A DNA stretch of 64,000 nucleotides from an uncultured Gammaproteobacteria bacterium. GTDB taxonomy: Bacteria; Patescibacteriota; Microgenomatia; Curtissbacterales; GWA2-41-24. The notes under the pieces were generated by a model. It was not told the DNA's origin, searched no databases, and saw only the letters and a program-made list of their open reading frames with translations. Positions 1 through 28,226 of the stretch are shown piece by piece (the first letter of the stretch is position 1; each line of letters starts with the position of its first letter). Made by a program: the position numbers and the translations under genes. The stretch is from assembly GCA_964562855.1 (NCBI GenBank), contig CAZLVB010000001.1:3614-67613 (forward strand), given 5' to 3'.

Positions 1-845
1 TTATGAATAAAATTGCCGAATTTTAGACCCAAGTCCTGATCCTGCAAAATGAATTTTATTGATTTCTCGATGTCCTCAAGCCGGGGTCTGCCGGTTGTAA
101 CTTCAAAACGCTGTAAGATTACTTTTGGGGGTATCAAAACAACGAGTGGCAGGGCAAGTGTGATAGTTATCAACAAAAAACCGGCCAAATATTTTTTAGG
201 GACAGAGAGAATATCTTTTTTCCAAATAAAAAAAGTAGCAATGAATAAAAGCGGCACAAAAATCCTTTCCGCATGATAGGTATACGCCGATAAAGCCAAA
301 AGAATACCGCTTACGATAAGCAATTTTTTATTTTTCAACCCATACAAAAAGGCGGTGATAGAACTTGCAGCAAAGAAGAGTCCCACAGTTGCTTCAAAGC
401 CAACCCGGGAAAACTGGAGATGCCAGGGGGAGATGGCCAACATTAGCATAGCTACTGTCGGAATATCCAATTTCAAATAATTACCAATTTCAAATTTCAA
501 ATTCGAGTTTTCAAATAGTTTTTTAGCTAAAAGATATAGTACGGGGACGGTCAGAAATCCGAAGATTGCAGATGGAAGCCTAGCGGCAAAAGGTGTCAGC
601 CCAAAAACGGCAACTGAGGGGATATTGAAGTACATGTAAAGTGGGGGTTTATAGTCGTCAAAAGATCTGTTGGTTATGGGTAGGAAGTCGCCGTATTCAT
701 CTTTGCCAGTTTTGAGAATTGAGTAGGCATTATAGGCATTACTGTTTTCGTCCCAATCTAAACTCAAAGGAATTTGTCCTAATTTGTAAAACCGGAGAAT
801 AAATGCTAAAAAAAGAATTGCCAAGAATATTGTTTTTCTACTCAA
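1..845 (-). CDS. GT39/PMT-like GT-C membrane glycosyltransferase paralog; partial, C-terminus lies beyond the window start
   Basis: Hand translation of the minus strand (frame with + coordinates divisible by 3) is open from 845 to 3. N-terminus reads LSRKTIFLAILFLAFILRFYKLGQIPLSLDWDENSNAYNAYSILKTGKDEYG ... LAISPWHLQFSRVGFE, matching the DE-motif N-terminus and ISPWH motif of the other paralogs. Putative TTG start at 843-845 preceded by GAGGAG. Confidence 0.6.
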   Translation of the reverse strand, partial: MSRKTIFLAILFLAFILRFYKLGQIPLSLDWDENSNAYNAYSILKTGKDEYGDFLPITNRSFDDYKPPLYMYFNIPSVAVFGLTPFAARLPSAIFGFLTVPVLYLLAKKLFENSNLKFEIGNYLKLDIPTVAMLMLAISPWHLQFSRVGFEATVGLFFAASSITAFLYGLKNKKLLIVSGILLALSAYTYHAERIFVPLLFIATFFIWKKDILSVPKKYLAGFLLITITLALPLVVLIPPKVILQRFEVTTGRPRLEDIEKSIKFILQDQDLGLKFGNFIH

Positions 846-2556
846 TTTTTTGCTCCTCTAACCTTTTTTTAATCTGGTCAACTTCATACACTTCAAAAAG
901 TCTGTCCCCATTGGGATCATCGACAGTAAAAATTGGCTTGACTTTAAACGATAATTCTTTGGCTTCTGTACCTTCAACCGCCAGCAAGGAGTTGACAGGA
1001 AGGGTTTCGGTACTGGGTGCTGATGGATAAAAGGTAAATTGGCCAATTTTTTCGATTACCTGCCACCCTCCCTGGTCGCGATATCTGACCACTGAGTTTA
1101 GAAAATTTTCGGGATCATATTTTTCGTAAAACAAGTAATGGATATATTGTTTGGCGTCATCCCCTTTTCTCGAAACTGCGATTTCACTATATGCGAACTT
1201 TTTGCTCTCCAAATAATTAAAAAGGTCCTTGTAACCATATCTTTGGTATCTTGCATAAACTTTTGGATAGAAATAAATCATATCTGTCCAAAATCGGGCT
1301 ATGGAGGCTAAAATGACAAGTAGTACGGCAATGCCTAACAACTGTTTTGCCCGTCTATTTTGTATCAGGGCAAAGAGTGTCATTAGACCAAAGGCGGCTA
1401 TAATCTGGGGAATTGGCATCAAGATGTTTAATCTGCCCGGATTACCAACACCCGTTATTGAAGGCCCGATAGGTATAATCAGAATCCAGGCAAGAAGCAG
1501 TAAGGAATTACTATTTTTAAATTTTAAGAGAGAAATTAGCCCGATTATCAAAAGCGGCAGTTCGAAAGTGTAAAAAAAACCTCTTAAGGGTACAGACTGA
1601 TAACCGGTGTAATTACCTTTTATGTAATAAGTTTCAGGCGATAAATTTGAGAAATAATTATTAAGATAAGTGGATAAGAAATAGGTATATTTATTGTATA
1701 TAACTGAGCAGACAAACATTGATAGTCCAGGTTGACATGAACCACGCCGAGAATTAATATCGTCAACTATTCCGCTTCTTTGAACTCCGGCAATAAAACT
1801 TTCCTGGAAAAATCGGGACTGGCCTTTAAAAGTTAATACAGTTGGAATCAGGGGTGTCAGCAGAATAAGAAATAATACTACGTTTCTCGCAAGCGCCGGC
1901 CAGATTGTTCTAAGTTTTCCTCGGTAAAAATAAATCAGCGCGGCAAGAAAAAGAGGCACGAAGAGCCAGCTGGAGCGGTAAATATAAAAACAGAGAGCAA
2001 ATCCAATAAAAGCAAAAGTTAGATATTTGCTATCCTTCAACCCCTTCAAGAAAAAATAGGTAGAGATTACTATAAAGAAAATTAAAATATCGGATTCAAA
2101 TGCATTGCGTGAAGCGACAATGTGCCACGGGGAGATTGCCAACATTAGCGCAGCTAATGTTGGAATTTCCAATTTCCAATTTCCAATTTCCAATAATTTT
2201 TTTAAGTCTTTAAAAAGTTCTTTAGTCAGCAGGTATGTCGCCCAGACAGCCAGAACGCCAAATGCTGCCGACGGGAGTCTTGTAGCGAATTCGTTGACTC
2301 CAAAGAAAAATTGTGAAACTACTGTTAAGTAAAGATATCCGACCAGCTTCCAGTCACCGAAACTTTCGAAAACCGGAAATGGTAAAAATCTCCCCCACTC
2401 GTCTTGGCCGTTTTTAAGAATCGAATAAGCATTGTAACCAAAAGCCGCCTCATCATCGTTAAAGCCGATGGGGATCGTGGTGAGATTTATGAAACGCAAT
2501 AAAACCGCTACCAAAATTATTGCGAGTAAGAAAAAATTGCCCCTGGCCCACTTCAT
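838..2556 (-). CDS. GT39/PMT-like (dolichyl/polyprenyl-phosphate-mannose-protein mannosyltransferase family) polytopic membrane glycosyltransferase
   Basis: 572 aa ORF with N-terminal TM segment followed by a DDEAAFGYNAYSILKNGQDEWG loop-1 DE motif and an ISPWH motif. Paralogous to 4037, 6217, 7809 and 9415. Confidence 0.75.
   Translation of the reverse strand: MKWARGNFFLLAIILVAVLLRFINLTTIPIGFNDDEAAFGYNAYSILKNGQDEWGRFLPFPVFESFGDWKLVGYLYLTVVSQFFFGVNEFATRLPSAAFGVLAVWATYLLTKELFKDLKKLLEIGNWKLEIPTLAALMLAISPWHIVASRNAFESDILIFFIVISTYFFLKGLKDSKYLTFAFIGFALCFYIYRSSWLFVPLFLAALIYFYRGKLRTIWPALARNVVLFLILLTPLIPTVLTFKGQSRFFQESFIAGVQRSGIVDDINSRRGSCQPGLSMFVCSVIYNKYTYFLSTYLNNYFSNLSPETYYIKGNYTGYQSVPLRGFFYTFELPLLIIGLISLLKFKNSNSLLLLAWILIIPIGPSITGVGNPGRLNILMPIPQIIAAFGLMTLFALIQNRRAKQLLGIAVLLVILASIARFWTDMIYFYPKVYARYQRYGYKDLFNYLESKKFAYSEIAVSRKGDDAKQYIHYLFYEKYDPENFLNSVVRYRDQGGWQVIEKIGQFTFYPSAPSTETLPVNSLLAVEGTEAKELSFKVKPIFTVDDPNGDRLFEVYEVDQIKKRLEEQKIE
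2139..2195. repeat. perfect 11-bp inverted repeat (CCAACATTAGC-GCA-GCTAATGTTGG, 2139-2163) followed by 4 perfect copies of heptanucleotide TTCCAAT (2168-2195), inside the CDS of GT39 paralog 838..2556
   Basis: Read directly from the sequence. The same palindrome is present at 10668-10692 in paralog 9415..11109; a degenerate copy is at 436-460. The repeat region translates in frame to LEIGNWKLEIPTLAALMLA. Confidence 0.8.
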
Positions 2557-4040
2557 GGTATTACCTGGTACAATCTCATGTAGCTATTCCCTACTCCTTT
2601 TTGGAATTTAACAACAAATTTTAAATTTCGATTTGTAATCTCTTTTTGATTCTCGTTAAAAACAAAGTACGTTTTATTAATTTGCGCCTGCTCTAGTGCC
2701 TGTTGAGAAAGTTTATTTGTATCTACCGGCCAAAAGCCGGTGATTTGTACGTTGTGATTACCGAAAAAATAAATCAGAAGGGCATACGGCAGTAGCCCAA
2801 AAGTACCTTCGGTTCCAACGTAAATCTGTTTATCTTTTGATTCGTTACGAATGATTTCAACGACCTCGTTAACTCCGTATCCCGCCGGCCAATCATTTAG
2901 ATACTGGCCCTTATCACTGTCGGCAATTCTTGCCTTTGTAGGGCTAGTCAGGAGAAAGTATGACGAAGAAAGAGGTAATATCAAAAACAAAGCAAAAATG
3001 GCTACGAATGATTTTTTAAATTGAGGAATTCGATCTAAAAAACTAATTACTCCGTGCGACAAAATAATTATTAAAAACGGAAAATAAAAAAGAAGAAACC
3101 TTGGGTAAATTACTTTATTGAAAACGGCCATCGCCAAAAACGGTATCAAAAATAAAAAAGATAAATAAATTATTCTTTTGTTCATTTTGTAGATTCCCCA
3201 AATAGCAGAAATTATAAAGATTAAGAACAGGGGCCATGTAATATAAGACGCAATCCATGTAGAAAGAGTAAAAAGGTTTGATTTAAAGAAAATGAGAGGA
3301 TCTTTTGCCACTTCTGAAAAAGGCCTGATAAATTCCAAGTTTTTGCGACCAATAATGTAAAACAGCGGGGAAAGTCTTAAACTGTTGTACATAAGTTGGG
3401 TTAAAACCACAGAAATGGCAGAAAGCCCAAGCCATTTTAAAAATTTGACATTCCGATTTTTTGCCGTGAAATCAAAAAGCAATAAAGAGAGCGGCAGAAA
3501 ATACAGAAAAAATACCCCAGACGATTTAGTAATCATTGCTAAGCCAATGGCAAAACCTGAAAATATAGATGTATCAAGACGTGGATTTTTGATGAGTTTA
3601 ACTGCAAACAAAATACTCAATATTCCAAACATTGTCAGCAACGAATCAAAAAGGGCCATACGATCGTAGAGTAAAGTGAATGGTAAGATTACATATAGAA
3701 GCGCCGAAAGTTTAGCAACTTTATCTGAAAACAGTTCTCTCGTTAGAAAATAAATTGCGACGACTGAGCCAAAACCGGCCATGACTGAGACTGCTCTTGT
3801 GGCAATTAAAGGATCATTTATAAAATTTTGAAAAATAGCGGCAAGCCAAATAAATAACGGTTGTTTGCCGTCTTCTAGAGAAATAAACCGGTGGGCTGGA
3901 TCGTGAAGAGCGACTTGGGCCCAATAGCTGTAAATTGCCTCGTCGGTGAATATCGGAATAATCTTTAGGTTGATGATTCTTGTCAGAAAATAGACTAAAA
4001 CTAAAAGAGGCCAGAAGAAAAATTCGAATTTGTTTTTCAT
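2553..4040 (-). CDS. ArnT/PMT_2-like GT-C membrane glycosyltransferase
   Basis: 495 aa polytopic ORF with an FTDEAIYSYWAQV motif resembling the ArnT DE(A/T)xY(A/S) loop motif. Overlaps both neighbours by 4 nt. Confidence 0.6.
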   Translation of the reverse strand: MKNKFEFFFWPLLVLVYFLTRIINLKIIPIFTDEAIYSYWAQVALHDPAHRFISLEDGKQPLFIWLAAIFQNFINDPLIATRAVSVMAGFGSVVAIYFLTRELFSDKVAKLSALLYVILPFTLLYDRMALFDSLLTMFGILSILFAVKLIKNPRLDTSIFSGFAIGLAMITKSSGVFFLYFLPLSLLLFDFTAKNRNVKFLKWLGLSAISVVLTQLMYNSLRLSPLFYIIGRKNLEFIRPFSEVAKDPLIFFKSNLFTLSTWIASYITWPLFLIFIISAIWGIYKMNKRIIYLSFLFLIPFLAMAVFNKVIYPRFLLFYFPFLIIILSHGVISFLDRIPQFKKSFVAIFALFLILPLSSSYFLLTSPTKARIADSDKGQYLNDWPAGYGVNEVVEIIRNESKDKQIYVGTEGTFGLLPYALLIYFFGNHNVQITGFWPVDTNKLSQQALEQAQINKTYFVFNENQKEITNRNLKFVVKFQKGVGNSYMRLYQVIP

Positions 4041-5650
4041 CGTGAAGAGATTCCTATATCGAAAACCCGTTGGCCTTCTAAATTGCTGACGGAATCGACT
4101 TTTTGAGCATCGGGAGGCAGTTGTTCCGGACTTGCAATAAAAAGCGCCTTGCCGGTAAGGGTAATATTGCCAAGACTATCACTGAATCTGTATTTATCAA
4201 AAGCCTCTACATCCAAAAAGTAAAATTTGTCTCTTTCGGTCTGGGACGTTTGCCAATAAAGTTTTGGTTCGTACTTAGTATAAAAAAGGAAATAAATATA
4301 TGGCCTTCCTTGGGCTTTTGTGACTACTATTTGATCGACTTGATCGTAATATTTTTGGGAAGCTTCAACAACCTGTTTGTAGCCGTATTGCCAGGAGCCT
4401 GAATAATTTAGAGGCCAGTGAATGTAATACATATGCAAGTAATAGAAAAAGTTGAGAGCCAATAATAAAAACGTTGCAATAAAAAAGATTTTTTTGAATT
4501 TGATTAGTTGATAAAGATAATATGCTCCAAAGGCGGCGATTAGTTGAAACGTTGGCAGAATATGGACCATTCTCAGTGCGTGCGGAGTTTCTCGAGCAGT
4601 GGCAGGACCAAGAGGTGAAACTAGCATCCAGCCAATGATTAACCACCGATACTGATGTTTTTTGGAAAATAAGAAATAAATGCCCGCCAATATTAATGGC
4701 AGATCGACAAGATAAAGTTCGCCAACTTCCTGGATTGAAAGTCTTGGATTAACATCTCCGCGAAAAAATAGGAAACTTGGGTTAAAAGCATCTAAATAAT
4801 GTTTTAAGTATTCTTGTGCATAAAATAAGCGCCGGTTGTGAATTAAATTGGACCACAAGGAATAGTTATCACGTACTTGATATCTTCTTGATTCGTCTAT
4901 GGGTTTTAAATCCCTAAAAATCGTGACTTCATTAAACCTAAGTTTGCCTTCGATAGTAATGGTTGCGAATTTAAATAGTGGCCAAAAAAGAAAAAGTGCT
5001 ACGATTGCGGTCGCAGTAACTAACTTGAGATTCGCCATAATTTGTTTTCTAAATTGCAGAAATAATATAGCCAAAATAAACGGCACAAAGAGCCTCTGGC
5101 CGGTGAACGTGTAGATTGCAGCTAAGAAGGAGAGTGCAGAAAAAAATAAGTAATATGATTTACCGGTCGCGAATTTTAAAAATAGATAGATCCCCAGTGT
5201 TGAAAAAAACAGGCCTAAATTTGCTTCAAAAGCCCCTCTTGAGAACTGTAAGTGCCAAGGGGAAATTGTTAAAAATAAAGCTGCAAGAAGCGAGATAACT
5301 TCTCTCTTAAAAAGTATTTTGGAAATTAAATAAACTAAAATAACAGTCAAAACTCCAAAAAAAGCAGAAGGGAATCTAATTGAGAATTCGTTTAGACCAA
5401 ATAAGGCCACTGACGGTACAGTTGTATAAATATAGCCTGGAGGCTTGTAATCACCAAAAGCTGCAAAATTAGTCAGTGGCATAAATTTACCGTGTTCATC
5501 ATGGCCAGTTTTAAGTATTGAATAAGCGTTGTAACCCAAAGAGGCCTCATCCCAATAAAGCGAGGGCGGGACAGATGAGAGTTTATAAAGTCTTAAAAAT
5601 AAGGCTAGCAGAACAATAGATATTAAGAGAACATTATTTAAATTTTTCAT
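4037..5650 (-). CDS. GT39/PMT-like membrane glycosyltransferase paralog
   Basis: 537 aa; YWDEASLGYNAYSILKTGHDEHGKFMPL and ISPWHLQFSRGAFE motifs. Confidence 0.75.
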   Translation of the reverse strand: MKNLNNVLLISIVLLALFLRLYKLSSVPPSLYWDEASLGYNAYSILKTGHDEHGKFMPLTNFAAFGDYKPPGYIYTTVPSVALFGLNEFSIRFPSAFFGVLTVILVYLISKILFKREVISLLAALFLTISPWHLQFSRGAFEANLGLFFSTLGIYLFLKFATGKSYYLFFSALSFLAAIYTFTGQRLFVPFILAILFLQFRKQIMANLKLVTATAIVALFLFWPLFKFATITIEGKLRFNEVTIFRDLKPIDESRRYQVRDNYSLWSNLIHNRRLFYAQEYLKHYLDAFNPSFLFFRGDVNPRLSIQEVGELYLVDLPLILAGIYFLFSKKHQYRWLIIGWMLVSPLGPATARETPHALRMVHILPTFQLIAAFGAYYLYQLIKFKKIFFIATFLLLALNFFYYLHMYYIHWPLNYSGSWQYGYKQVVEASQKYYDQVDQIVVTKAQGRPYIYFLFYTKYEPKLYWQTSQTERDKFYFLDVEAFDKYRFSDSLGNITLTGKALFIASPEQLPPDAQKVDSVSNLEGQRVFDIGISSR

Positions 5651-5654
5651 CTCG

Positions 5655-6230
5655 CTAATTAAAAAAGATATTATTACATACCGACTTTAATTGCCAATTG
5701 AAGATGAAGTACCAGATAGTTAAGTAGCTTAGGGCAACTAAAATAAATATTGACTGGGCCGATTTGGCAAGTCGCCCGATCCCCCATAGAGAAAACGTGT
5801 ATCTTGACAAGGCTAACAAATAAAACTCCAGTTTGGATGAAGAAGCAATAATTGCGTATAACGGTACAGCTAGGAATGTCAAAAAATGGACTAGAGACCA
5901 AAAACGTTTTTTTCTGGTAATTTCAACTATTCCTAAGATCAGTAGTACAACACCAACTGGCCCGACGGTTTCGAATAACAACTTAGGGGTAAAAGTGGAT
6001 AAATACGATTTGCCAAATTCGTAGAGGCCGGCACTTGCTTTATTATGAAAAAAACGGGCGACGGTTCTTTCTATATCTGTATCTGTAGCCGTTTGTGATT
6101 CGACATTAATTTTTACTGAAAGCGGGATAAAGCTATAATCGATAAATTGCTTACAACCGGTGGTTTGCCACATTCTAAAAGCATAAACTGAAACTATTAG
6201 TAAAATTAAAACTAATTTAATTTTTGCCAT
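5655..6230 (-). CDS. hypothetical membrane protein
   Basis: 191 aa ORF with an N-terminal hydrophobic segment and about four predicted TM helices. It sits between two GT39 paralogs. No recognisable family. Confidence 0.4.
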   Translation of the reverse strand: MAKIKLVLILLIVSVYAFRMWQTTGCKQFIDYSFIPLSVKINVESQTATDTDIERTVARFFHNKASAGLYEFGKSYLSTFTPKLLFETVGPVGVVLLILGIVEITRKKRFWSLVHFLTFLAVPLYAIIASSSKLEFYLLALSRYTFSLWGIGRLAKSAQSIFILVALSYLTIWYFIFNWQLKSVCNNIFFN

Positions 6231-7818
6231 TTATTTTCCAGAGAGAATATATATGACGCCCATTAGTATCATTGGCTGCAGTAAGCCAATCACCGTCGAC
6301 CTTCTTCCATGACGGTGCAACGTATAAAATTCTTCCTTTATTGTACAAATCAAAATCGTCAGAAGTGAAAATGTATTTTGAGAATCCATCCTTGTTGCCT
6401 TCAGTTGCGAACTTTTGTGGATCGTATTTTTTATAAAACAGAACATATATATATGGAACTTGGGTAATGTTGGAGATATAAATTTTGTCAAAAGTATTTT
6501 CGAATTGCACCAACTTTTCTACCATTTGCTTGTTGCCATCTTGCCAGTCCGCGGAAAATTTTCGCGGATAATGAATAAAAAGTAGGTGCACATAGGTTAA
6601 AAATGAATAGACAATGACAATCGAAATCATCAGCTTGATAATGTACGGTTTGTAATTTGAGAAGAGATGGTATAACCCTAACCCTGATAAAAAAGCCATT
6701 GGCACTGCCATTTGAAGAGTCCTGTATGCGTGAGGCGCTGGATTGACGATACTGGCTGGAATGGGAGCAACAAAAAGCATTGCAAGTAATAACTTAACCG
6801 ACTTTTTATCCTGGCCTCTAAGTGCAAAAAGGGCAACAATAATTAAAATTAGCTCAAAAGAAAATATTTGGCCCATGTCGACTTGAGAATGCCTGCCGGT
6901 TTGATCCCCGTTTATGAAAAGGAAGGTAGGCGAGAAATGTTCAATATAGTTGTTTAAAGCGATCGAGGAATAATAAAAAGGCTTGGACCAGTATCCGGAT
7001 AAAAGTCTCAACGGTCTTTTGGAACTTTGATCAAACCCGACTCTAGCCATTTCGAAATCACCAGGATCGAATCCCGACTGGGAAATCGCCCTAGCTCTAC
7101 CATTTGGCGAAAAAGTGAAAGTAAAAAGCGGCAGAAAAATAATTACTCCGACGATCACCGGAATTATTAAAATCTTGATCATTTTTCTGAGTTGGTTGAA
7201 ATAAATTAAAAAAATCGCAAAGATCATCAGGGGGGTAAAGATTCTATAGGCATGATAGCTGTACATTGAAAGATCAAAGAGGATAAAAGCGGCTGTGAAA
7301 TAAGCCCATTTCTTCTTTTCAAACGAATTTAAAAAAATAAATAAGCCACTCATAAAGAAAAAGAGACCGGCCGTTGATTCAAAACCAGCTCTGGAAAACT
7401 GTATATGCCAAGGTGAAATAGCTAAGAATAATGTCGAGAATAAGGATAATTTTTCATTTTTGGTTAATTTGTAAACGATTAAAAAGAAAACTAATACGGT
7501 GATGGATCCTAAAAAAGCGCTTGGAAGACGAACTGCAAATTCATTCAGGCCGAATACTGCAATCGATGGTACAAGCAAATAATGATAAACGGGTAGTTTC
7601 CAGTCACCGAAGCTTTCAAAGAACAATGGCAGAGTAACTCCGTGGTGATCCTTACCCGTTTTAAGCAGGGAGTAAGCATCGTAACCAAAAACCGCTTCAT
7701 CCCAATAAAGCCCAGGCGGATTGAGCCCCAATTTATAGAAGCGTAGAATGCCAGCTAGGATCAAAATCACCAAGAGGATTACAAGCTTATGATTTGAGAT
7801 TTTAATTTTCATTGCCAT
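6217..7818 (-). CDS. GT39/PMT-like membrane glycosyltransferase paralog
   Basis: 533 aa; LYWDEAVFGYDAYSLLKTGKDHHG and ISPWHIQFSRAGFE motifs. Confidence 0.75.
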   Translation of the reverse strand: MAMKIKISNHKLVILLVILILAGILRFYKLGLNPPGLYWDEAVFGYDAYSLLKTGKDHHGVTLPLFFESFGDWKLPVYHYLLVPSIAVFGLNEFAVRLPSAFLGSITVLVFFLIVYKLTKNEKLSLFSTLFLAISPWHIQFSRAGFESTAGLFFFMSGLFIFLNSFEKKKWAYFTAAFILFDLSMYSYHAYRIFTPLMIFAIFLIYFNQLRKMIKILIIPVIVGVIIFLPLFTFTFSPNGRARAISQSGFDPGDFEMARVGFDQSSKRPLRLLSGYWSKPFYYSSIALNNYIEHFSPTFLFINGDQTGRHSQVDMGQIFSFELILIIVALFALRGQDKKSVKLLLAMLFVAPIPASIVNPAPHAYRTLQMAVPMAFLSGLGLYHLFSNYKPYIIKLMISIVIVYSFLTYVHLLFIHYPRKFSADWQDGNKQMVEKLVQFENTFDKIYISNITQVPYIYVLFYKKYDPQKFATEGNKDGFSKYIFTSDDFDLYNKGRILYVAPSWKKVDGDWLTAANDTNGRHIYSLWKINGKN

Positions 7819-9452
7819 TCACCTATAAGGAATATTTCTTTTTTTTGCGAGTAGTCAGAAACTGTATACAGTTTTATAAATCGTTTCTCTCTGCCGATTG
7901 CCTGCAGTTCCTGAGGCGAAATTGCTAGCAATGTCTTTGTTCCGCTAATAGAGTCAATTGCGGCCTCGTCCAAATCCTTGCCGCCGCTATCCCAGTATGT
8001 GGTGCCGAATTTGTATTTACCAATGCGCTCTTGATTAAAGCCGAAATAGTTTTGAGGCTCAATTTTATTGTAAAAAAGATAGAAGATATAAGGTTTCCAG
8101 TAGCGTCCGGTCACAATAACCGAGTCGTAACTATTTTCAATTTCTGCAATTTGGGAAAACATCTGCTTATAGCCGTAAGCCCAGCTCGCACTGTCTTTAA
8201 GAGGGTAGACAAAATAATAGCTGTAAATATAATTTGTAAAAAATAGAATAATTGCAATGACAGCTAATATTTTATAAATCTGTCTCTTAACAAGAACTGC
8301 TTGTAATCCTAATGCGGACAGCATAATTAAAGATGGCAGCATCAATAAAGAGCGCAGTGCGTGTGGTGATTGTTGGGAAAATGCTGCAGGAAGCGGAGAA
8401 AAAACTAACCAGGCCGCAATAAATATTTTTGATTTTAACTCAACTTTTTTCATTAAAATCCAAAACCCTATAAAAATTAATGGTAATTCGAAAAGATAGA
8501 AGTTGCCGTGATACGCAGAATGATGACGCGGATTAGAATCACCCCCGAAAAACAAAAACGGGAATGAAAAGTGCGAAAAATAGTTATTTGCCGCCGTAAA
8601 AATGTAAGGTATTCTTCTGTTTAGGAAAAAATTCGCAAAAACGCTTGGATTTTTTGCCTTGGCATCCACATAATCTACTGTCAGTGATTTGTCCGAAAAA
8701 ATGCTAATTTCGGAAATATGTTTTACTCCCACGGGTCGAAAGGTTTGAATTATTAAGGGGGTAAGAAAAAGTATAGATATCGCTAAGCCCGATAGATAGT
8801 ATCTGACATTTTTGAATATCAATTTATTAAAAACGATAAAGAATACAAGTACTATAAGAGGTACAAACAATTTTGGTGAATGATAGAAAAAGATCGAAGT
8901 CGCAAGCACAGGAATTGAAAATAAAGCTACTAGGCGATTTCCTGTGCCATAAAACAGCATATTGGATCCTAACACCACAAGTGTTAGTGCTACGTTTGCT
9001 TCAAATGCAGCTCTTGAAAATTGCAGGTGCCAAGGGGAAATTGCCAGAAGGGCCGAGGCACTTAGCGCCACCTGTTCGCTAAGTTTGTAATTTGCAAAGA
9101 GATTTTTGGATAAAAAATAGATGCCGATGACTGCAAAAACACCGAAGAGCGCGGAAGGAAATCTTACTGAAAATTCAGAAAGGCCTAAGAATTTTATAAA
9201 AGGTGCGTCAAGATATATATACCCCGGAAGCTTATAATCGTTAAAAGATTTAAATAATATAGGCAGCTTTGTTCCGTACTCATCTGTTTGATTTTTAGCT
9301 ATAGAAAAAGCATTATACCCATTGGCTACTTCATCCCAATATAAAGAAACAGGAAAAGACTCAAGCTTATAAAATCTAAGAATTGCCGCAATAACTGTGA
9401 TTACAATAAGAAGTTTATATTTCATCTGAAACAATGTGGATAGCTGGTTCAC
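7809..9452 (-). CDS. GT39/PMT-like membrane glycosyltransferase paralog
   Basis: 547 aa; LYWDEVANGYNAFSIAKNQTDEYG and ISPWHLQFSRAAFE motifs. Confidence 0.75.
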   Translation of the reverse strand: MNQLSTLFQMKYKLLIVITVIAAILRFYKLESFPVSLYWDEVANGYNAFSIAKNQTDEYGTKLPILFKSFNDYKLPGYIYLDAPFIKFLGLSEFSVRFPSALFGVFAVIGIYFLSKNLFANYKLSEQVALSASALLAISPWHLQFSRAAFEANVALTLVVLGSNMLFYGTGNRLVALFSIPVLATSIFFYHSPKLFVPLIVLVFFIVFNKLIFKNVRYYLSGLAISILFLTPLIIQTFRPVGVKHISEISIFSDKSLTVDYVDAKAKNPSVFANFFLNRRIPYIFTAANNYFSHFSFPFLFFGGDSNPRHHSAYHGNFYLFELPLIFIGFWILMKKVELKSKIFIAAWLVFSPLPAAFSQQSPHALRSLLMLPSLIMLSALGLQAVLVKRQIYKILAVIAIILFFTNYIYSYYFVYPLKDSASWAYGYKQMFSQIAEIENSYDSVIVTGRYWKPYIFYLFYNKIEPQNYFGFNQERIGKYKFGTTYWDSGGKDLDEAAIDSISGTKTLLAISPQELQAIGREKRFIKLYTVSDYSQKKEIFLIGEWQ

Positions 9453-11109
9453 CGTTTATATAATTGATAACTTTCAAGGTTTTGCCTTTGCCGGATAATT
9501 CTTGTGGTGTCCCCACAAAAAGAGTTTTTGCTTCTTGTCGTTGTTGTTCATAATCAATCGGTCTAAAAAGGTATCTATCAAATTTATTTCTATCTTCCAG
9601 AAAACCGCCAGAAACAGTACCCCCCTCCTCTAAATATTTTTTGGGGTCGTACTTTAGGTAGTAGAGCCAAAATTCGTGAGGTTGTTCTAATTTGGTGGAA
9701 ACAATGACACGATCATATCTATCTTTAATCTCTTCAGAGTATAGTGCCGCTTCTCGTCTTCCATATATCCAGGCTTTCGAATATTCGTAGGGCATATGAA
9801 TATAGTATTGATGAAGGTAAAATGAAAAATTCGCAAATAATAGTAAAGCTACGAAAATTGTAAACAATCGTTTATGTTTGAAGGAAGAATAAATAGTGAA
9901 AGCACCAATTGCAGTAAATATCTGATAAGTAGGCAAATATATCTCACTTCTTAGGGAATGAGGAACTCCCCAAGTTACAGATGAGGCAATCGGCGCTATC
10001 AAAAACCACCAAAATATAATAACTTTCGACTTAACCTCAAATTTTTTGGCAATTAAAAAATAAATTCCGGCGAGGATAAACGGAATGTCCCAAAGATATA
10101 AAAGTCCGATTTGTGGAGCATGATGTCTGTCCATATCGGCATTCAAAAAGAGAAAATCAGGTCTAAAATGTGAAAGATAATTTTCAATTAAAATCGGAAT
10201 ATAGACAAGACGACGATTATGGAAAATTCGGCCCAACGTCAGCTGCCCTTGATTTTCGTCCTGTGCAATTAATTCGGCAGCCTTATATTGAGGAGAGACG
10301 TCGGCAAAAATAGTTGTACCTTTAAACCTCATTTGTCCTGCTGTAGAAAAAATAACTGGCAATAAAACTAGTGCAAAAATTAGGGAAATTGCCGCGGGTA
10401 GGATTAGCGATTTGATTGATTTTAAAAGGTTATCTTTAAATAGATAAATTAAAACTATGGAATAAATGGGCACAAAAACTCGGGCATTATGGTACATAAA
10501 AAGATTTACACCGAAAGCAATGGCAGATATGGATAACCAAAGGGTTCTCTTTCGGTCTTTGCTTGTGATTGCCTTCAAAAAAGCCCATGTGGCCGATACA
10601 GACAAAAAAATAGCACTGTTTGTTTCGAAAGCAACCCTCGAAAATTGTAAGTGCCAAGGGGAGATGGCCAACATTAGCGCAGCTAATGTTGGAATGTCCA
10701 ATTGAAACGTTTTCCTTTGGAAAAGCAAATTTCTAATTTCTAATGAATTGACTAATTGGGATGGGGGTCTTGGGAATAATTCTTTGACCATCAAATAGGT
10801 GAATAAAACTGCTAAGACTCCAAGAATTGCCGAAGGTAATCTAACAGCGAAGTCATTGAGTCCGAAAATAGCAATTGAGGGTACTACCAGATAGGTGTAA
10901 ACTGGCGGCTTGTAATCGTCAAATGATCTAAAAGATAAAGGAAATTTATAGCCATATTCGTCCCGGCCAGTCTTAAGAATTGAAAGGGCATTATAACCGT
11001 GGGCAGTTTCGTCCCAGTCAAGACTAGGAGGGTTCTGGCCGAGCTGATAAAACCTCAAGATTGCAGCAAGCAGAATTATTAGAATCAAGTAAAAATTATT
11101 TTTTAACAT
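9415..11109 (-). CDS. GT39/PMT-like membrane glycosyltransferase paralog
   Basis: 564 aa; LDWDETAHGYNALSILKTGRDEYG motif and IPTLAALMLAISPWHLQFSRVAFE, sharing the identical palindromic block with gene 838..2556. Confidence 0.75.
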   Translation of the reverse strand: MLKNNFYLILIILLAAILRFYQLGQNPPSLDWDETAHGYNALSILKTGRDEYGYKFPLSFRSFDDYKPPVYTYLVVPSIAIFGLNDFAVRLPSAILGVLAVLFTYLMVKELFPRPPSQLVNSLEIRNLLFQRKTFQLDIPTLAALMLAISPWHLQFSRVAFETNSAIFLSVSATWAFLKAITSKDRKRTLWLSISAIAFGVNLFMYHNARVFVPIYSIVLIYLFKDNLLKSIKSLILPAAISLIFALVLLPVIFSTAGQMRFKGTTIFADVSPQYKAAELIAQDENQGQLTLGRIFHNRRLVYIPILIENYLSHFRPDFLFLNADMDRHHAPQIGLLYLWDIPFILAGIYFLIAKKFEVKSKVIIFWWFLIAPIASSVTWGVPHSLRSEIYLPTYQIFTAIGAFTIYSSFKHKRLFTIFVALLLFANFSFYLHQYYIHMPYEYSKAWIYGRREAALYSEEIKDRYDRVIVSTKLEQPHEFWLYYLKYDPKKYLEEGGTVSGGFLEDRNKFDRYLFRPIDYEQQRQEAKTLFVGTPQELSGKGKTLKVINYINGEPAIHIVSDEI

Positions 11110-12814
11110 TTCTTAAAACTAGACCGGCTGCCAGCAGGAAAGACCCGAGACTGAGATAATTTGCAAACAACCTTGTTGGAGTTTCTCCAAATTTTACATC
11201 TACTTCGTGGCCACCTTTGGTTAATTTAATGCTCATGAGCCCGGATGCGTCCTGTTCACTGTCAAGATCGAGACTTGTAGTGTTGGTAATTTCAAATTCT
11301 TGATGCAGACTAAGTTTTTGGCCATCAACAAATATTGTGACACCTGGAAAGTAAAACTTATTTATTCTTATCTGGGCGCTTTCGGAATTGACGTCTACCT
11401 CAAAAGACAGTCTATTTGATTTGGCACGTACATTAGACAAACTTGATTCGCCGGATAAATTTTCGACATTTATGCTGGGGTCAAAACCTATTGGTACTTT
11501 GGTGGATTGCCTCCATATCGGAGTAAATTCATTATACTGAGTAGCTGTACCCGAGTAATCGGAAAAATGATCGTCGGGCCACATTAGACTTTGATTAATT
11601 CTTAAGTGATTGCGATTAGCTATCAACACCGCTAAAACCAGAAAGATAAATATCAAACCTGGTTTTAATGCCTTAGCAGCAAAAGCGGCCAGATAGGCCA
11701 ACGATACAGATACAATTCCTAAAAGCCTCCAAGGAAGATCGATAAAATGCAGAAACTTGATTTTTTGCCAAATTATGGTGTTAGGTTTAATCTGCAACAT
11801 TAAAAATATTGCAAGCAAGGCAATTGCAAAGAAAAAAAAGATTAGCCAATTTTCGGCTTTTGAGAAAGACAGTTTCTTTTTAAAAAAAGCATATACCAAA
11901 AGAAAAAACACTAGGAGTAAAATCAATATATGCGCTAAGCCAATTTGGAAAGATATTTGGTCATTAACTGTTCCCGGTAGGTCAAATCCGTATCCCCATG
12001 GAGATCGGATAAGCTGCTTTAAGGTGACAAAATGATTTTCATAGGCAGTTCTTATGATTTCGTCGAATCTTGTGAATCTGCGTTCAAAAACTGACGGCAG
12101 GTAAGTCACGGCTGAAAGCAAAAATCCCCAAATTGCGACAATTGCCGAGTTCCTGAGCATTCGAGCAAAATTTTTGTTGAGCGCCAACACAATTGCGTAT
12201 CCTGCAATTAAAGGGGCTGCCAAGATTGCTACTAAATTCTGAGAAAGTAACAAAGCAGAAAATGAGAGCACACTAATAGCTAGCCATTTCCAAGTATTCT
12301 CTTTCCATAGTTTAGTAATTGAAAATAACAATAAAGGAAGAAAAGTATATGCTAAAAGCTCGGAGATTGAGCCGCGAACGTATATCAAGGAAAATCTGTA
12401 GGGAGCCCACATATAAAACAGTGCGCCCAAAAAGGCCGCTTTTTCAGACTTGAAAACTGCTTTAAGCCAAAGATAGCTAAAAATTCCCGAAAAAATAAAG
12501 CCGACAGCCATCAGAATTTTAAAACTATCTGCGAAAGAAAAACCCAAGAAATGAATTACTGAACCAAAAGCATAGGGTAACGGATATATGTAAACGAATA
12601 TCGGGCTTCCTAGGCCGTTGTAGAAGTTGCCAGCAAAACGTGGCGGAAATTGGCCATCGCTAAGGGCTTGATAATAAGCTGCAATGCGCGCCGCATGGGT
12701 TTCGCCGTCGTGACTCGTGTAAAAACCCGGAAGAGTCAAACTTTTAAGCGCAGGTGCTGAAAGGATAATCAGAGCAGCTATAGCCAGAAAATTCGGATTA
12801 TACCAAAACCTCAC
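11096..12814 (-). CDS. large polytopic membrane protein, putative GT-C-type glycosyltransferase (unnamed family B)
   Basis: 572 aa; N-terminal motif FYTSHDGETHAARIAAYYQALSDGQFPPRF...NGLGSPIFVYIYPLPY shared with 26484..28226 and 34100..35710. Many TM helices, then a C-terminal soluble domain. Confidence 0.5.
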   Translation of the reverse strand: MRFWYNPNFLAIAALIILSAPALKSLTLPGFYTSHDGETHAARIAAYYQALSDGQFPPRFAGNFYNGLGSPIFVYIYPLPYAFGSVIHFLGFSFADSFKILMAVGFIFSGIFSYLWLKAVFKSEKAAFLGALFYMWAPYRFSLIYVRGSISELLAYTFLPLLLFSITKLWKENTWKWLAISVLSFSALLLSQNLVAILAAPLIAGYAIVLALNKNFARMLRNSAIVAIWGFLLSAVTYLPSVFERRFTRFDEIIRTAYENHFVTLKQLIRSPWGYGFDLPGTVNDQISFQIGLAHILILLLVFFLLVYAFFKKKLSFSKAENWLIFFFFAIALLAIFLMLQIKPNTIIWQKIKFLHFIDLPWRLLGIVSVSLAYLAAFAAKALKPGLIFIFLVLAVLIANRNHLRINQSLMWPDDHFSDYSGTATQYNEFTPIWRQSTKVPIGFDPSINVENLSGESSLSNVRAKSNRLSFEVDVNSESAQIRINKFYFPGVTIFVDGQKLSLHQEFEITNTTSLDLDSEQDASGLMSIKLTKGGHEVDVKFGETPTRLFANYLSLGSFLLAAGLVLRNVKK

Positions 12815-26508: not shown

Positions 26509-28226
26509 TTTTTAAAAACAAATATTGATAGTACTGATATCGACAACAAAGAAATCAAATTACCAAGTGTCCTTATAAGCGTGTTATTAAATTCTAACGA
26601 AATTACGTGAATTCCTTTGGGAACTTCAAAAGTTATTAATTTCAATCGATTGTTATCGTCTATTTTTATTCTCTTCCCATCAACCGCTGCCCCCCAGCCG
26701 GGAAAATTGAATATGTTCGCTTTGACTTGAGCATCGGTTTCGGCTATGGCTGTAAATTCAACACTTGAGGGTGTCTCCTTCAGGTTCTCTACTGTAGCTT
26801 TTCCGTTTATAACTTCTATTTTTTCCTCTGGAGTATCGTCTTTTGTAATTTTAACTATATTAGTCCCTAATTCACTTTTTGTAAGTTCTGCTCCTTTGGG
26901 CAGGTACTCAAAAGAAGATGATGAAACATACCAATTGATTGTTTCAGGAGAAGTTGCAGATTCATCAGTCAGATCTAATCTATACGACTGGGGCTTAAAA
27001 AGTTTTAAATTTACTATTAACAAAATCAAAACTAATATCAGGAATCCGTAAAATCGCAATATGGGTAATCTTAGAAATTCTAAAAAGGTTCCGGCTAAGA
27101 ATGAGCTAAAAAGCGCTGTAAATATCAAGAATCTCCAGGGAAACTGTAAGTACTGAAGAGGTGATATTAAATCCCAAATTGCTTTCGAATAGAAAGTTGT
27201 CATGAAAGCAGAGAAGAGAAAAAGCAGAAAGAAGACGGTTGGCAGTTTAGAGTTGACGGTTGGCAGTTTAGAGATGCCTTTATTTTTTAAAAAAATGACA
27301 AGAGATAAAAGCACTGCAGCAACTGATACTAATACATGGAGTTTCCCAATCTTGAAAGAGATTCCATCTGCAAGACCTGCGGCTGACCCTCCAAAGCCCC
27401 ACATCCAATTCCATAATTGCTGTGGATAGACGAAATGAATTTTGTAATTAGCTAGATTAACCAAAAGCAGGTCATCAACGATTGTAAATTTTTTCTCGAA
27501 AAGTGCCGGTAGCCAAAAAAACGCAGAGAGGCCGAATGAGTAAACAATTGACAATAAACAATTGACAGCTAACGGTTTTTTCTCTGGAGATCTCCAAATC
27601 AGAAACAAAAGATAAAAGGGCAAAATGAACATGAAGGGAAGAAAAATAAGATTGTGGGTAATCATCAAAAACGCCAGAAAGAGTGAAGATAAAACCAGAT
27701 AGATACTTTTGTTGGTTGCCGCCAGTTTGTAGAATGACCAAAGAATCAAAGGCAGCCAGACAAAAGAAAAACTTTCAGCAAGAGCCCCTCTTACATAAAT
27801 ATCTAGAGCCCGATATGGAACTGCCATATAAAATACAGCGCTTGAAAGTGATGGCAGTCTGCCAAAAAATTCTTTGGAGAATATGTACATCGCTATGCCT
27901 GAAGCAAAAATAGATAAGAAAAATACAATTTTTACACTGTTGATAAGCCCGAACCCAACGTTGTGAAAAATATCACCCAAGGCATAAACCAAAGGCGGAT
28001 AGAAAACGAATAGTGGATACCCAAACCCAAAACCCAATCCGTCTACCCATCTTACCGGAAACTGGCCGGATTTTAATGCTTTGTCAAAAACAAACAATCG
28101 GGCTATCTGTTGATCGTCGTGAATAACAAAAAGACCCGGTTTAAAAAGAGGTAGGGACAAAATTATGGACACTAGAAAAATCAAAATCAGAATTACTAAA
28201 TTATTTCTCATTTGGGACAAAAACAT
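26484..28226 (-). CDS. polytopic membrane protein, putative GT-C-type glycosyltransferase (family B paralog)
   Basis: 580 aa; N-terminal HDDQQIARLFVFDKALKSGQFPVRWVDGLGFGFGYPLFVFYPPLVY, the same motif as 11096..12814 and 34100..35710. Confidence 0.5.
   Translation of the reverse strand: MFLSQMRNNLVILILIFLVSIILSLPLFKPGLFVIHDDQQIARLFVFDKALKSGQFPVRWVDGLGFGFGYPLFVFYPPLVYALGDIFHNVGFGLINSVKIVFFLSIFASGIAMYIFSKEFFGRLPSLSSAVFYMAVPYRALDIYVRGALAESFSFVWLPLILWSFYKLAATNKSIYLVLSSLFLAFLMITHNLIFLPFMFILPFYLLFLIWRSPEKKPLAVNCLLSIVYSFGLSAFFWLPALFEKKFTIVDDLLLVNLANYKIHFVYPQQLWNWMWGFGGSAAGLADGISFKIGKLHVLVSVAAVLLSLVIFLKNKGISKLPTVNSKLPTVFFLLFLFSAFMTTFYSKAIWDLISPLQYLQFPWRFLIFTALFSSFLAGTFLEFLRLPILRFYGFLILVLILLIVNLKLFKPQSYRLDLTDESATSPETINWYVSSSSFEYLPKGAELTKSELGTNIVKITKDDTPEEKIEVINGKATVENLKETPSSVEFTAIAETDAQVKANIFNFPGWGAAVDGKRIKIDDNNRLKLITFEVPKGIHVISLEFNNTLIRTLGNLISLLSISVLSIFVFKKWQTLKTN

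What the first reader, a model, noticed from the sequence alone, without database searches (positions are those of the whole stretch)
2125..2200. Identical palindrome-containing coding block shared by otherwise diverged GT39 paralogs: gene conversion or an in-frame palindromic mini-element
Paralogs 838..2556 and 9415..11109 are only about 40% identical as proteins. Yet they share a nearly identical 45-nt stretch, GGGGAGAT(T/G)GCCAACATTAGCGCAGCTAATGTTGGAAT, at 2129-2167 and 10658-10696. It contains a perfect 11-bp inverted repeat with a 3-nt loop and encodes IPTLAALMLAISPW. A degenerate copy lies at 428-466 in the partial paralog.

The three paralogs with this block also carry an extra 17-27 codon insertion between the conserved KELF and ISPWH positions, relative to paralogs 4037, 6217 and 7809. 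The insertion contains short heptanucleotide tandem repeats: TTCCAATx4 at 2168-2195, TTCAAAT-like at 471-500, and ATTTCTAx2 at 10727-10740. Palindromic repeats that insert in-frame into coding sequences are known from Rickettsia (RPE elements). This looks like a comparable element, or a hotspot of inter-paralog gene conversion.
Basis: seen in the sequence. Interest (0 to 1): 0.6.

Follow-up and report, generated by a model that had tools for sequence, protein, structure and literature searches.

The report
Converted heptamer-repeat-plus-hairpin insert in paralogs
Three neighbouring glycosyltransferase genes share a small in-frame insert, a 7-base tandem repeat followed by an 11-bp hairpin, that was copied between the gene copies by short-tract gene conversion; the event is ordinary, but the hairpin is kept by compensatory changes and its purpose is unknown.

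Summary
CCAACATTAGCGCAGCTAATGTTGG occurs exactly twice (2139-2163 and 10668-10692). These are the only perfect inverted repeats of 11 bp or more with a loop in the 64 kb window. A decayed third copy lies at 437-461.

The hairpin is not itself an inserted element. It encodes the first residues of the helix before ISPWH. The true insertion is the heptanucleotide repeat next to it (GGAAATT x4.4 in B, TGAAATT in A, AGAAATT in H).

About 120 orthologs of H and the closest orthologs of B lack the module. A syntenic Curtissbacteria cluster has it only in the A ortholog. Over roughly 60-105 nt, B and H match each other and A at 83-93%, but match their own orthologs at 38-56%. Outside that tract they follow their orthologs. 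This is short-tract gene conversion between tandem paralogs.

Across 15 GT39 genes with the repeat, the hairpin is kept by compensatory changes at three base pairs. GT39 genes without the repeat have no hairpin.

(GGAAATT)n arrays also occur in frame in many Patescibacteria (CPR) housekeeping genes and in 23S rRNA. They are enriched next to hairpins.

The role of the hairpin is inferred, not shown. The RPE analogy fails for the palindrome.

The parts
838..2556 (-). Paralog B, a GT39/PMT_2 (GT-C fold) membrane glycosyltransferase of 572 aa
   Evidence: ORF list. Pfam PMT_2 1.1e-09. AF2 model with pLDDT 94, with Foldseek matches to STT3, ArnT and PMT.
2139..2163 (-). Hairpin copy 1: 11-bp perfect stem with a 3-nt loop. 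It encodes PTLAALML(A), the start of the helix before ISPWH.
2164..2194 (-). Heptanucleotide array, coding strand ATT(GGAAATT)x4, giving peptide LEIGNWKLEI. This is the actual in-frame insertion in B.
   Evidence: TRF. Codon alignment. Absent from the closest B orthologs P0001 and P0002 and from L137 and L138.
2122..2211 (-). Approximate gene-conversion tract in B, from after KELF to TGGCAC of ISPWH
   Evidence: In the sliding comparison B~A is 0.81-0.87 and B~H is 0.93 here, against 0.38-0.49 to B's own orthologs. Outside the tract B matches its own ortholog at 0.7-0.98.
9415..11109 (-). Paralog H, GT39/PMT_2, 564 aa
   Evidence: About 120 orthologs at 61-73% identity lack the module.
10668..10692 (-). 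Hairpin copy 2, identical to copy 1
10693..10744 (-). Decayed array in H: AATTGGACATT, then a nested second small hairpin (10710-10724, TTTTCC-AAA-GGAAAA on the coding strand), then AGAAATT x2.4 (10728-10744)
10651..10744 (-). Minimal gene-conversion tract in H. It may extend to about 10773.
   Evidence: Here H~A is 0.83-0.90 and H~B is 0.93, against 0.48-0.56 to the H ortholog. Elsewhere H matches its ortholog at 0.6-0.87.
1..836 (-). Paralog A, a partial GT39 gene that runs off the window start
   Evidence: Its closest relatives carry the module.
437..461 (-). Hairpin copy 3, decayed: 9 Watson-Crick pairs, 1 G-U pair and 1 mismatch out of 11
   Evidence: The A ortholog in L137 has CCAACAGTAGC-TAT-GCTAATGTTGG.
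462..503 (-). Decayed array in A (TGAAATT type, perfect x2.6 at 486-503). It is 21 nt longer than in the A ortholog of L137.

Best explanation
The shared block is part of a small in-frame module found in some GT39 genes of Microgenomates. The module is a heptanucleotide simple-sequence repeat (unit NGAAATT, typically ATT(GGAAATT)x4, peptide LEIGNWKLEI). It sits in the loop before the ISPWH helix and directly abuts an 11-bp hairpin built from the first codons of that helix.

In this genome the module was copied between tandem paralogs by short-tract non-allelic gene conversion of about 60-105 nt. The tract is bounded by the conserved KELF and ISPWH coding segments. That is why B and H, at 33% protein identity, share 29 identical bases. 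This step is shown.

The array changes length by slippage, and only frame-preserving 21-nt steps are seen. This is shown.

The hairpin is retained over long divergence through compensatory substitutions. This is shown.

Why it is retained is inferred. My preferred reading is a DNA-level link. A hairpin in single-stranded template stalls the polymerase just after it has copied the array. That promotes 7-nt slippage, which keeps the array long and homogeneous. The palindrome is kept paired by selection or by quasi-palindrome template-switch correction. I see no evidence that the module serves the glycosyltransferase. It most likely behaves as a tolerated, self-perpetuating indel in what I infer to be a cytoplasmic loop.
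For: 1. About 120 H orthologs (61-73% identity) have KNRKIALLAAFFLAISPWH and no module. The closest B orthologs (74%) also lack it.

2. The syntenic cluster in related Curtissbacteria (L136, L137; also L138) has the same gene order. The module is present only in the A ortholog of L137.

3. Sliding nucleotide identity shows phylogenetic incongruence confined to the module.

4. An NJ tree of 224 GT39 proteins needs at least 9 gains or losses of the module. Arrays occur in the A, B, D and H lineages in different genomes.

5. Hairpin covariation in 15 array-bearing GT39 genes:
- 89% of cells are paired, against 78.5% in shuffles (0 of 500 reach the observed value) and 19-45% in slid controls.
- Three pairs show GC/AU/CG, AU/CG/UA and GC/AU/UA.
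- RNAalifold finds the same helix independently.

6. GT39 genes with arrays fold the 36 nt before ISPWH at -10 to -17 kcal/mol. Those without arrays mostly give 0 to -6. Other GT39 classes have unrelated hairpins starting right after GGAAATT.

7. 21-nt length differences occur between close relatives.

8. In 124 genomic (GGAAATT)>=3 arrays, a perfect stem of 6 bp or more starts within 4 nt on one side in 17%. The figure is 5% on the other side and 2% in controls. This polarity is tied to the array strand.
Against: The donor and direction of conversion are not fixed. The A hairpin differs from the B/H hairpin at 4 positions, and the three arrays are quite diverged. Either the arrays evolve much faster than the hairpin, or more than one event occurred.

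With 4 differences in the 53-nt block, zero differences in the 29-nt run is only mildly unexpected (Fisher p about 0.04, my own arithmetic).

The stalling and slippage role of the hairpin is untested. Array quality and hairpin quality do not correlate cleanly: H has a perfect hairpin and a decayed array, while L128 has a perfect array and a decayed hairpin.

The mean folding energy of the 44 nt beside genomic arrays does not differ from controls. Only a minority of arrays outside GT39 have a hairpin.

G-T versus A-C mismatch counts (6 versus 4) do not tell RNA from DNA, or one strand from the other. GC skew gives no replication direction.
Confidence: 0.7

Rival explanations
1. The hairpin is a functional cis-acting structure under purifying selection. 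Examples would be an mRNA element for stability, processing or translational pausing, or a DNA site. Conversion would merely be how it spread. This reading is not exclusive of the best explanation.
For: Compensatory changes occur at three pairs across deep divergence. Hairpins of unrelated sequence sit at the same place in other GT39 classes. In this genome the hairpin sequence is perfectly conserved while the arrays next to it decay.
Against: There is no Rfam match at E<=1. The region is not terminator-like. The z-scores of the surrounding 111-141 nt are modest, -0.7 to -2.4. There is no strand signal from wobble pairs. Most orthologs work without it. Quasi-palindrome template switching can produce apparent covariation without selection (established mutational mechanism, my knowledge).
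Confidence: 0.25
2. The module is an autonomous very small mobile element, like an RPE, MITE or small dispersed repeat. It would insert in frame by transposition, not by homologous copying.
For: (GGAAATT)n arrays with a modal size near 4 units occur in frame in many unrelated genes, in 23S rRNA and in intergenic DNA of many CPR and other MAGs. Several genomes have more than one copy. Some non-CPR copies are inverted pairs that look like MITEs.
Against: In this window arrays occur only in the three GT39 paralogs. The palindrome occurs only at the GT39 site in 1.0 Mb of fetched DNA. The transferred tract includes flanking host codons up to ISPWH, as expected for homologous copying. No terminal inverted repeats, target duplications or transposase were seen. 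In viral contigs GGAAATT arrays (11 loci) are no more common than control heptamers (5, 7 and 15 loci).
Confidence: 0.12
3. The module is ancestral to the A, B and H lineages and was lost many times elsewhere. The identity would reflect purifying selection, not conversion.
For: The module is old in some GT39 clades, for example P0098-P0103, where all members carry it, and in the A lineage.
Against: H would need losses throughout a clade of about 120 orthologs. Within the tract, B and H are 93% identical to each other but 38-56% identical to their own orthologs. Module-free orthologs share lineage-specific helix-start codons.
Confidence: 0.06
4. The array is a phase-variation (contingency) switch. 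Gain or loss of one 7-nt unit would turn the glycosyltransferase off or on.
For: A 7-nt unit inside an ORF of a surface-glycosylation gene family fits this class. Copy number does change between relatives.
Against: Only 21-nt (3-unit) differences were seen. Of 124 genomic arrays, 85 are in frame inside long ORFs and none of the rest is a clear split gene. Tracts are short (about 4 units) and are the same length, LEIGNWKLEI, in distant genes. The A and H units contain stop codons if extended.
Confidence: 0.06

Closest known systems
Short-tract non-allelic (ectopic) gene conversion between tandem paralogs
   Same: The tract is more similar between paralogs than to their orthologs. The flanks revert to orthology. 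The genes are tandem and in the same orientation. The tract is bounded by the most conserved coding segments.
   Different: The tract carries an indel module (repeat plus hairpin). It is the only converted segment detected in these genes. The same loop has received the module in several paralog lineages in different genomes.
Long heptanucleotide simple-sequence repeats of bacteria. Mrazek et al. 2007, as summarised in PMC4679880 and PMC4692102. Examples are STRR of Calothrix, TAACTGA of Beggiatoaceae, GGGGATT of Nostoc and GGGAATC of Xanthomonas.
   Same: Perfect tandem 7-nt units. Period 7 strongly over-represented relative to periods 5, 6, 8 and 9. Length changes in unit steps. Some copies are arranged as inverted pairs (PMC4692102).
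   Different: Those repeats are described as mainly intergenic. Here most copies are in frame inside ORFs, including housekeeping genes, in CPR bacteria. They have a modal size of about 4 units and an adjacent hairpin on one defined side. I found no paper containing this repeat or its peptides.
Rickettsia palindromic elements (RPE), in-frame palindromic insertions (from my knowledge)
   Same: Extra residues are inserted in frame in functional proteins. Palindromic DNA is involved. Distribution among homologs is patchy.
   Different: RPEs are about 100-150 bp dispersed elements. Here the palindrome is 25 nt, is host-coded helix sequence, and is not dispersed. The dispersed part is a simple repeat.
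Small dispersed repeats (21-27 nt) of Nostoc (Elhai et al. 2008). Recalled from memory; the paper could not be opened.
   Same: Very small repeated sequences associated with heptamer repeats and hairpins, some inside genes.
   Different: Different sequences and phylum. The comparison is a lead only and was not tested.
Quasi-palindrome template-switch mutagenesis (from my knowledge)
   Same: It would keep both arms of an imperfect inverted repeat complementary, which mimics compensatory evolution.
   Different: Not demonstrated here. It does not explain why the palindrome sits next to the array.

Membership tests
Ectopic gene-conversion tract | Within the tract, paralogs are closer to each other than to their own orthologs | tested here: met
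   H~B 0.93 and H~A 0.83-0.90, against H~H-ortholog 0.48-0.56. B~A 0.81-0.87, against B~B-ortholog 0.38-0.49.
Ectopic gene-conversion tract | Outside the tract each gene follows its ortholog | tested here: met
   H~H_L137 is 0.6-0.87 and B~B_L138 is 0.7-0.98 over the rest of the first 285 codons.
Ectopic gene-conversion tract | Orthologs in a syntenic relative lack the converted sequence | tested here: met
   L137 and L138 have the same gene order. Their H and B orthologs have no array and no hairpin.
Heptanucleotide long SSR | Perfect head-to-tail 7-nt units, at least 3 copies | tested here: met
   TRF finds 2164-2194 at x4.4 with 100% matches. The A and H arrays are x2.6 and x2.4.
Heptanucleotide long SSR | Copy-number differences in unit steps between relatives | tested here: met
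   L125 versus L126, and window A versus L137 A, each differ by exactly 21 nt.
Rickettsia-type palindromic element (RPE) | Palindromic element of about 100-150 bp | tested here: not met
   The palindrome is 25 nt. The whole module is about 56-95 nt and most of it is a tandem repeat.
Rickettsia-type palindromic element (RPE) | Many copies dispersed in unrelated genes of the same genome | tested here: not met
   There are 2 exact copies plus 1 decayed copy, all at the homologous GT39 site. No other copy occurs in 64 kb or in 1.0 Mb of fetched loci. The rest of the genome was not available.
Rickettsia-type palindromic element (RPE) | Inserted in frame in coding sequence | tested here: met
   The ORFs are intact and have 11-23 extra codons relative to paralogs and orthologs.
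Phase-variable contingency locus | Alleles differing by non-triplet numbers of units (on/off) | tested here: not met
   No frameshifted alleles among 124 arrays, and only 3-unit differences were seen. Read-level variation was not testable.
Structured cis-regulatory RNA | Covariation supporting a helix | tested here: met
   Three covarying pairs, with 0 of 500 shuffles reaching the observed score. RNAalifold predicts the same helix.
Structured cis-regulatory RNA | Match to a described family, or evidence that the transcript strand is the one that folds | tested here: inconclusive
   No Rfam hit. G-T 6 versus A-C 4. The hairpin side follows the array strand, not the gene strand.
Intrinsic terminator | G+C-rich stem followed by a T run | tested here: not met
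   Not called on either strand by the scan. The tail is AATTTCC repeats.
MITE / REP-type element | Terminal inverted repeats, target-site duplication, multi-copy in the genome | tested here: inconclusive
   None of these features is seen at the GT39 sites. Some non-CPR loci show inverted array pairs (L036, L114, L098). These were not analysed further.

The most novel reading that the evidence does not exclude
The heptamer array plus abutting hairpin is a previously undescribed kind of very small, self-perpetuating in-frame element of CPR and other bacteria. A (GGAAATT)~4 array would establish and persist specifically on one side of DNA hairpins, and would be found inside housekeeping genes, GT39 genes and 23S rRNA. 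The hairpin would be an obligatory cis partner, kept by compensatory change. If so, this is a hairpin-dependent repeat-generating or repeat-targeting mechanism, not ordinary slippage.
Probability: 0.2. Interest if true: 0.8.

Novelty: new variant of a known kind. Interest (0 to 1): 0.55.

Why it matters
The case shows how a tiny indel can move among tandem paralogs of a surface-glycosylation gene family in an uncultured CPR bacterium. It can create islands of nucleotide identity that could be mistaken for mobile elements or functional motifs.

The work also points to a wider pattern, which I found in no paper I could search. The same 7-nt repeat sits in frame in many CPR housekeeping proteins and in 23S rRNA, and it preferentially lies beside a hairpin on one defined side. 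In GT39 genes that hairpin is kept by compensatory substitutions inside coding sequence.

If the link between repeat and hairpin is mechanistic, it offers a way to address why heptanucleotide repeats are the commonest long simple repeats in bacteria, a question the cited papers (PMC4679880, PMC4692102) leave without an established mechanism. It would also matter for annotating CPR proteins, whose low-complexity loops may largely have this origin.

Tried and rejected
- Rfam scan of 1-12000 at E<=1 found nothing.
- The promoter and terminator scan did not flag the hairpin.
- GC skew to infer replication direction was uninformative.
- G-T versus A-C mismatch counts to decide RNA versus DNA, or which strand folds, were inconclusive.
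- Programmed frameshifting: I read the frame and found no X XXY YYZ slippery heptamer in frame before the hairpin. Rejected from the sequence.
- Phase variation: I looked for split ORFs around 39 arrays not inside long ORFs and found none convincing.
- 'GGAAATT is a uniquely special unit': weakened. Control heptamers are equally frequent in viral contigs. Viral GGAAATT arrays are short and lack hairpins. Being stop-free in six frames is shared by 39 of 265 AT-rich heptamer classes.
- In-phase decay of the array into its flanks showed no polarity. Only a modest excess of lag-7 periodicity was seen upstream.
- Assembly artefact: rejected. The identical run is 29 nt, both copies are in frame with distinct flanks, and related modules recur in independent assemblies.
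- The Elhai 2008 paper could not be retrieved.
- The exact-protein look-up of H on contigs failed. Only the cluster record was found, an NCBI contig of 75,262 nt.
Full report
**What is there.** The first 11 kb of the window holds a tandem, same-strand (minus) set of GT39/PMT_2 membrane glycosyltransferase genes:
- A, partial, 1-836
- B, 838-2556
- D, 4037-5650
- F, 6217-7818
- G, 7809-9452
- H, 9415-11109

They are 29-46% identical as proteins. B versus H is 33% at the protein level and 47% at the nucleotide level. Homolog names place the organism in Candidatus Curtissbacteria (Microgenomates, CPR).

The 25-mer CCAACATTAGCGCAGCTAATGTTGG occurs exactly at 2139-2163 and 10668-10692, with none expected by chance. 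These two sites are the only perfect inverted repeats of 11 bp or more with a loop in the whole 64 kb. On the coding strand, B and H share a 29-nt exact run in which all nine third-codon positions are identical. The synonymous sites immediately outside the run differ. Other paralog pairs reach at most 21 nt. A decayed copy lies at 437-461 in A.

**Anatomy.** The codon alignment shows that the palindrome encodes IPTLAALMLA. This aligns with the start of the helix before ISPWH in paralogs and orthologs without any insert (ISLLAALFLT, IALIAALLLA and similar). The palindrome is therefore not extra sequence.

The extra codons are the heptanucleotide repeat immediately 5' of it on the coding strand:
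- B: ATT(GGAAATT)x4, peptide LEIGNWKLEI
- A: TGAAATT x2.6 plus decayed units
- H: AGAAATT x2.4 plus a nested small hairpin (10710-10724) plus AATTGGACATT

The A and H units would create TGA or TAG codons if extended, whereas GGAAATT is stop-free in all six frames.

An AF2 model of B (pLDDT 94) puts the insert in a short, lower-confidence loop (residues about 115-130) between a long helix (89-114) and the kinked ISPWH helix. The fold is GT-C, with matches to STT3, ArnT and PMT. From the GT-C architecture and the K/R-rich flanks I infer that this is the first cytoplasmic loop. That was not measured.

**Origin of the identity: gene conversion.** About 120 orthologs of H (61-73% identity) have KNRKIALLAAFFLAISPWH with no array or palindrome. 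A few carry other, unrelated inserts at the same loop. The closest orthologs of B (73-74%) also lack the module. The closest relatives of A do carry it.

A syntenic cluster in a related Curtissbacteria genome (L136, L137) has the same gene order (DHOase, PTPS-related, H, G, F, E, D, C, B, A). There the H and B orthologs are module-free. The A ortholog has a short form, ENSKLKFDIPTVAMLMLA, with hairpin CCAACAGTAGC-TAT-GCTAATGTTGG. In L138, both the B ortholog and the neighbouring A-like gene are module-free.

A sliding comparison shows that H follows its ortholog (0.6-0.87) and B follows its ortholog (0.7-0.98) everywhere except alignment columns of about 135-160. There H~B is 0.93, H~A is 0.83-0.90 and B~A is 0.81-0.87, while identity to the gene's own ortholog drops to 0.38-0.56. 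This is the signature of a short ectopic conversion tract of about 60-105 nt, bounded by the conserved KELF and ISPWH codons.

On an NJ tree of 224 GT39 proteins the module needs at least 9 gains or losses. Arrays are found in the A, B, D and H lineages in different genomes. Two fragments, P0241 and P0255, share an essentially identical N-terminal sequence up to the module but carry different module types, which suggests cassette-like replacement. The donor and the number of events in this genome are not resolved.

**The hairpin is maintained.** DNA of other array-bearing GT39 genes shows the same 25-nt position kept as a helix through double changes:
- CCAACAATAGC-AGC-GCTATTGTTGG (L002)
- CCAGAAATAGC-TAT-GCTATTTCTGG (L129)
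- CCAGAAGTAG-caagc-CTACTTCTGG (L126)
- CCACAAATAGC..GCTACTTGTGG (L130)
- CCAGTAAT..ATTACTGG (L003)

On 15 sequences, 89% of cells pair, against 78.5% in shuffles (0 of 500 reach the observed value) and 19-45% when partners are slid. Three pairs show three Watson-Crick types each. RNAalifold predicts the same helix.

GT39 classes with a different spacing have unrelated hairpins that also start right after GGAAATT: CTGCCGC/GCGGCAG, CTAGCAGC/GCTGCTGG and CTCGCCGC/GCGGTGAG. GT39 genes without arrays have no comparable structure.

Whether the folded molecule is RNA or DNA is unresolved. Template-switch correction of quasi-palindromes could mimic selection.

**Array dynamics.** Close relatives differ by exactly 21 nt (three units): L125 versus L126, and window A versus L137 A. 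No frameshifted alleles were seen. Slippage filtered by reading frame fits this better than an on/off switch does.

**Wider context.** These were mostly Patescibacteria of many classes, but also other phyla.

Array length has modes at 27 and 30-31 nt. Of 124 arrays, 85 lie in frame inside long ORFs. In 66 of these the array is antisense to the gene (peptide ISNFQFPISNF) and in 19 it is sense. By my reading of the flanking peptides these include LeuRS, MnmA, LepA, Fmt and PolA. Others lie inside 23S rRNA genes.

A perfect stem of 6 bp or more begins within 4 nt of the 3' end of the GGAAATT strand in 17% of arrays. The figure is 5% on the other side and 2% at random positions. For arrays antisense to the gene, allowing one mismatch, it is 21% against 2%.

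Period-7 repeats dominate the simple repeats in these loci: 181, against 0, 3, 10 and 1 for periods 5, 6, 8 and 9. This agrees with the published excess of heptanucleotide repeats in bacteria, for which polymerase slippage was proposed (PMC4679880, PMC4692102).

Two caveats apply. In viral contigs GGAAATT arrays (11 loci) are no more frequent than control heptamers (5, 7 and 15 loci), and they are short and lack hairpins. I also could not run controls on the genome collection, so I do not claim that the unit itself is special. I found no paper containing this repeat or its peptides.

**Mechanism.** Three things are shown: conversion between paralogs, frame-preserving length change of the array, and compensatory maintenance of the hairpin.

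The following is inferred. A hairpin in single-stranded template stalls the polymerase just after it has copied the array. This favours 7-nt slippage that keeps the array long and homogeneous. It would explain the fixed side of the hairpin relative to the array. If most genes are co-oriented with replication, it would also explain the 66:19 strand bias.

Alternatives are a functional RNA or DNA hairpin, or a genuinely mobile mini-element.

**Verdict.** The gene-conversion reading is supported. The RPE-like reading fails for the palindrome but captures the fact that a dispersed, in-frame simple repeat is involved. The local event is ordinary. The repeat-hairpin association and its covariation inside coding sequence are unusual and unexplained.

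Noticed in passing
L113:5076-5109 (also L093:~5038-5069 on its minus strand): A (GGAAATT)x4 array lies inside a 23S rRNA gene. Rfam places LSU rRNA at 3639-7496, which is 3858 nt against a 2925-nt model. The array sits directly 5' of a native helix (CCAGCGC-gta-GCGCTGG). L093 shows the same arrangement at what looks like the same rRNA position.
   Followed up: partly
L005-L124 (e.g. L020, L057, L106, L112; L074, L087, L105; L047; L005, L067): GGAAATT arrays sit in frame inside conserved housekeeping genes of CPR bacteria. By my reading of the flanking peptides these include LeuRS at two different sites, LepA, MnmA, Fmt and PolA. There is a 66:19 bias for the array being antisense to the gene. 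In LeuRS and LepA the adjacent hairpin is built from conserved host codons (YLAYIMR, KLQPIRLKF).
   Followed up: partly
window 10710-10724: A second small palindrome (TTTTCC-AAA-GGAAAA on the coding strand) is nested inside the decayed array of paralog H. Other GT39 homologs (P0101 ACPPDWRR, P0028 ARPAKPWRSG, P0071) also have extra sequence nested in the middle of the array. Only the proteins were seen; back-translation suggests G+C-rich hairpins.
   Followed up: no
proteins P0043, P0094 (B lineage) and P0124, P0149, P0165, P0178 (H lineage): A different insert with the motif GG(R/K)ET(T/I)DRTR occupies the same loop in orthologs of both B and H from other genomes. The loop appears to be a general hotspot for indels shared across paralog lineages.
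   Followed up: no
L036:1809-1900, L114:366-450, L098, L102, L092, L045: In non-CPR MAGs (Gemmatimonadota, Saprospiraceae, Bacteroidota and others) the arrays occur as inverted pairs, (GGAAATT)n - spacer - (AATTTCC)n. These form long hairpins that look like MITEs or REPINs in otherwise G+C-richer DNA.
   Followed up: no
proteins P0241 and P0255; P0266; L139 (P0276): P0241 and P0255 are essentially identical (one difference seen) over the N-terminal ~115 residues up to the module but carry different module types (LKLEIGNWKLEIPEIAMLFLA versus KLKFDIPTVAMLMLA). P0266 has a repeat-derived peptide of the opposite orientation (NFQFSIFNFQ) at the same GT39 loop. P0276 is a D-lineage ortholog with a perfect array, whereas D in this window has none.
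   Followed up: partly
window 1-64000; L136/L137: Nearly all ORFs of 120 aa or more are on the minus strand. The left part of the window is a large glycosylation cluster with at least 7 GT-C type genes in tandem, with overlapping stops and starts. The gene order is conserved in a related Curtissbacteria genome.
   Followed up: partly
window 27234-27273 and 27541-27567: There are perfect tandem duplications of 21 nt (x1.9) and 14 nt (x1.9) inside ORFs further along the window (TRF). They were not examined.
   Followed up: no
L143, L147, L149 (viral contigs): Three IMG/VR contigs share the identical context gggagtaggggaagaagatgaaatt(GGAAATT)x3 gaagaaaagatgaaacc. This may be one phage gene start carrying the repeat. 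Viral arrays are only 3 units long and lack adjacent hairpins.
   Followed up: no
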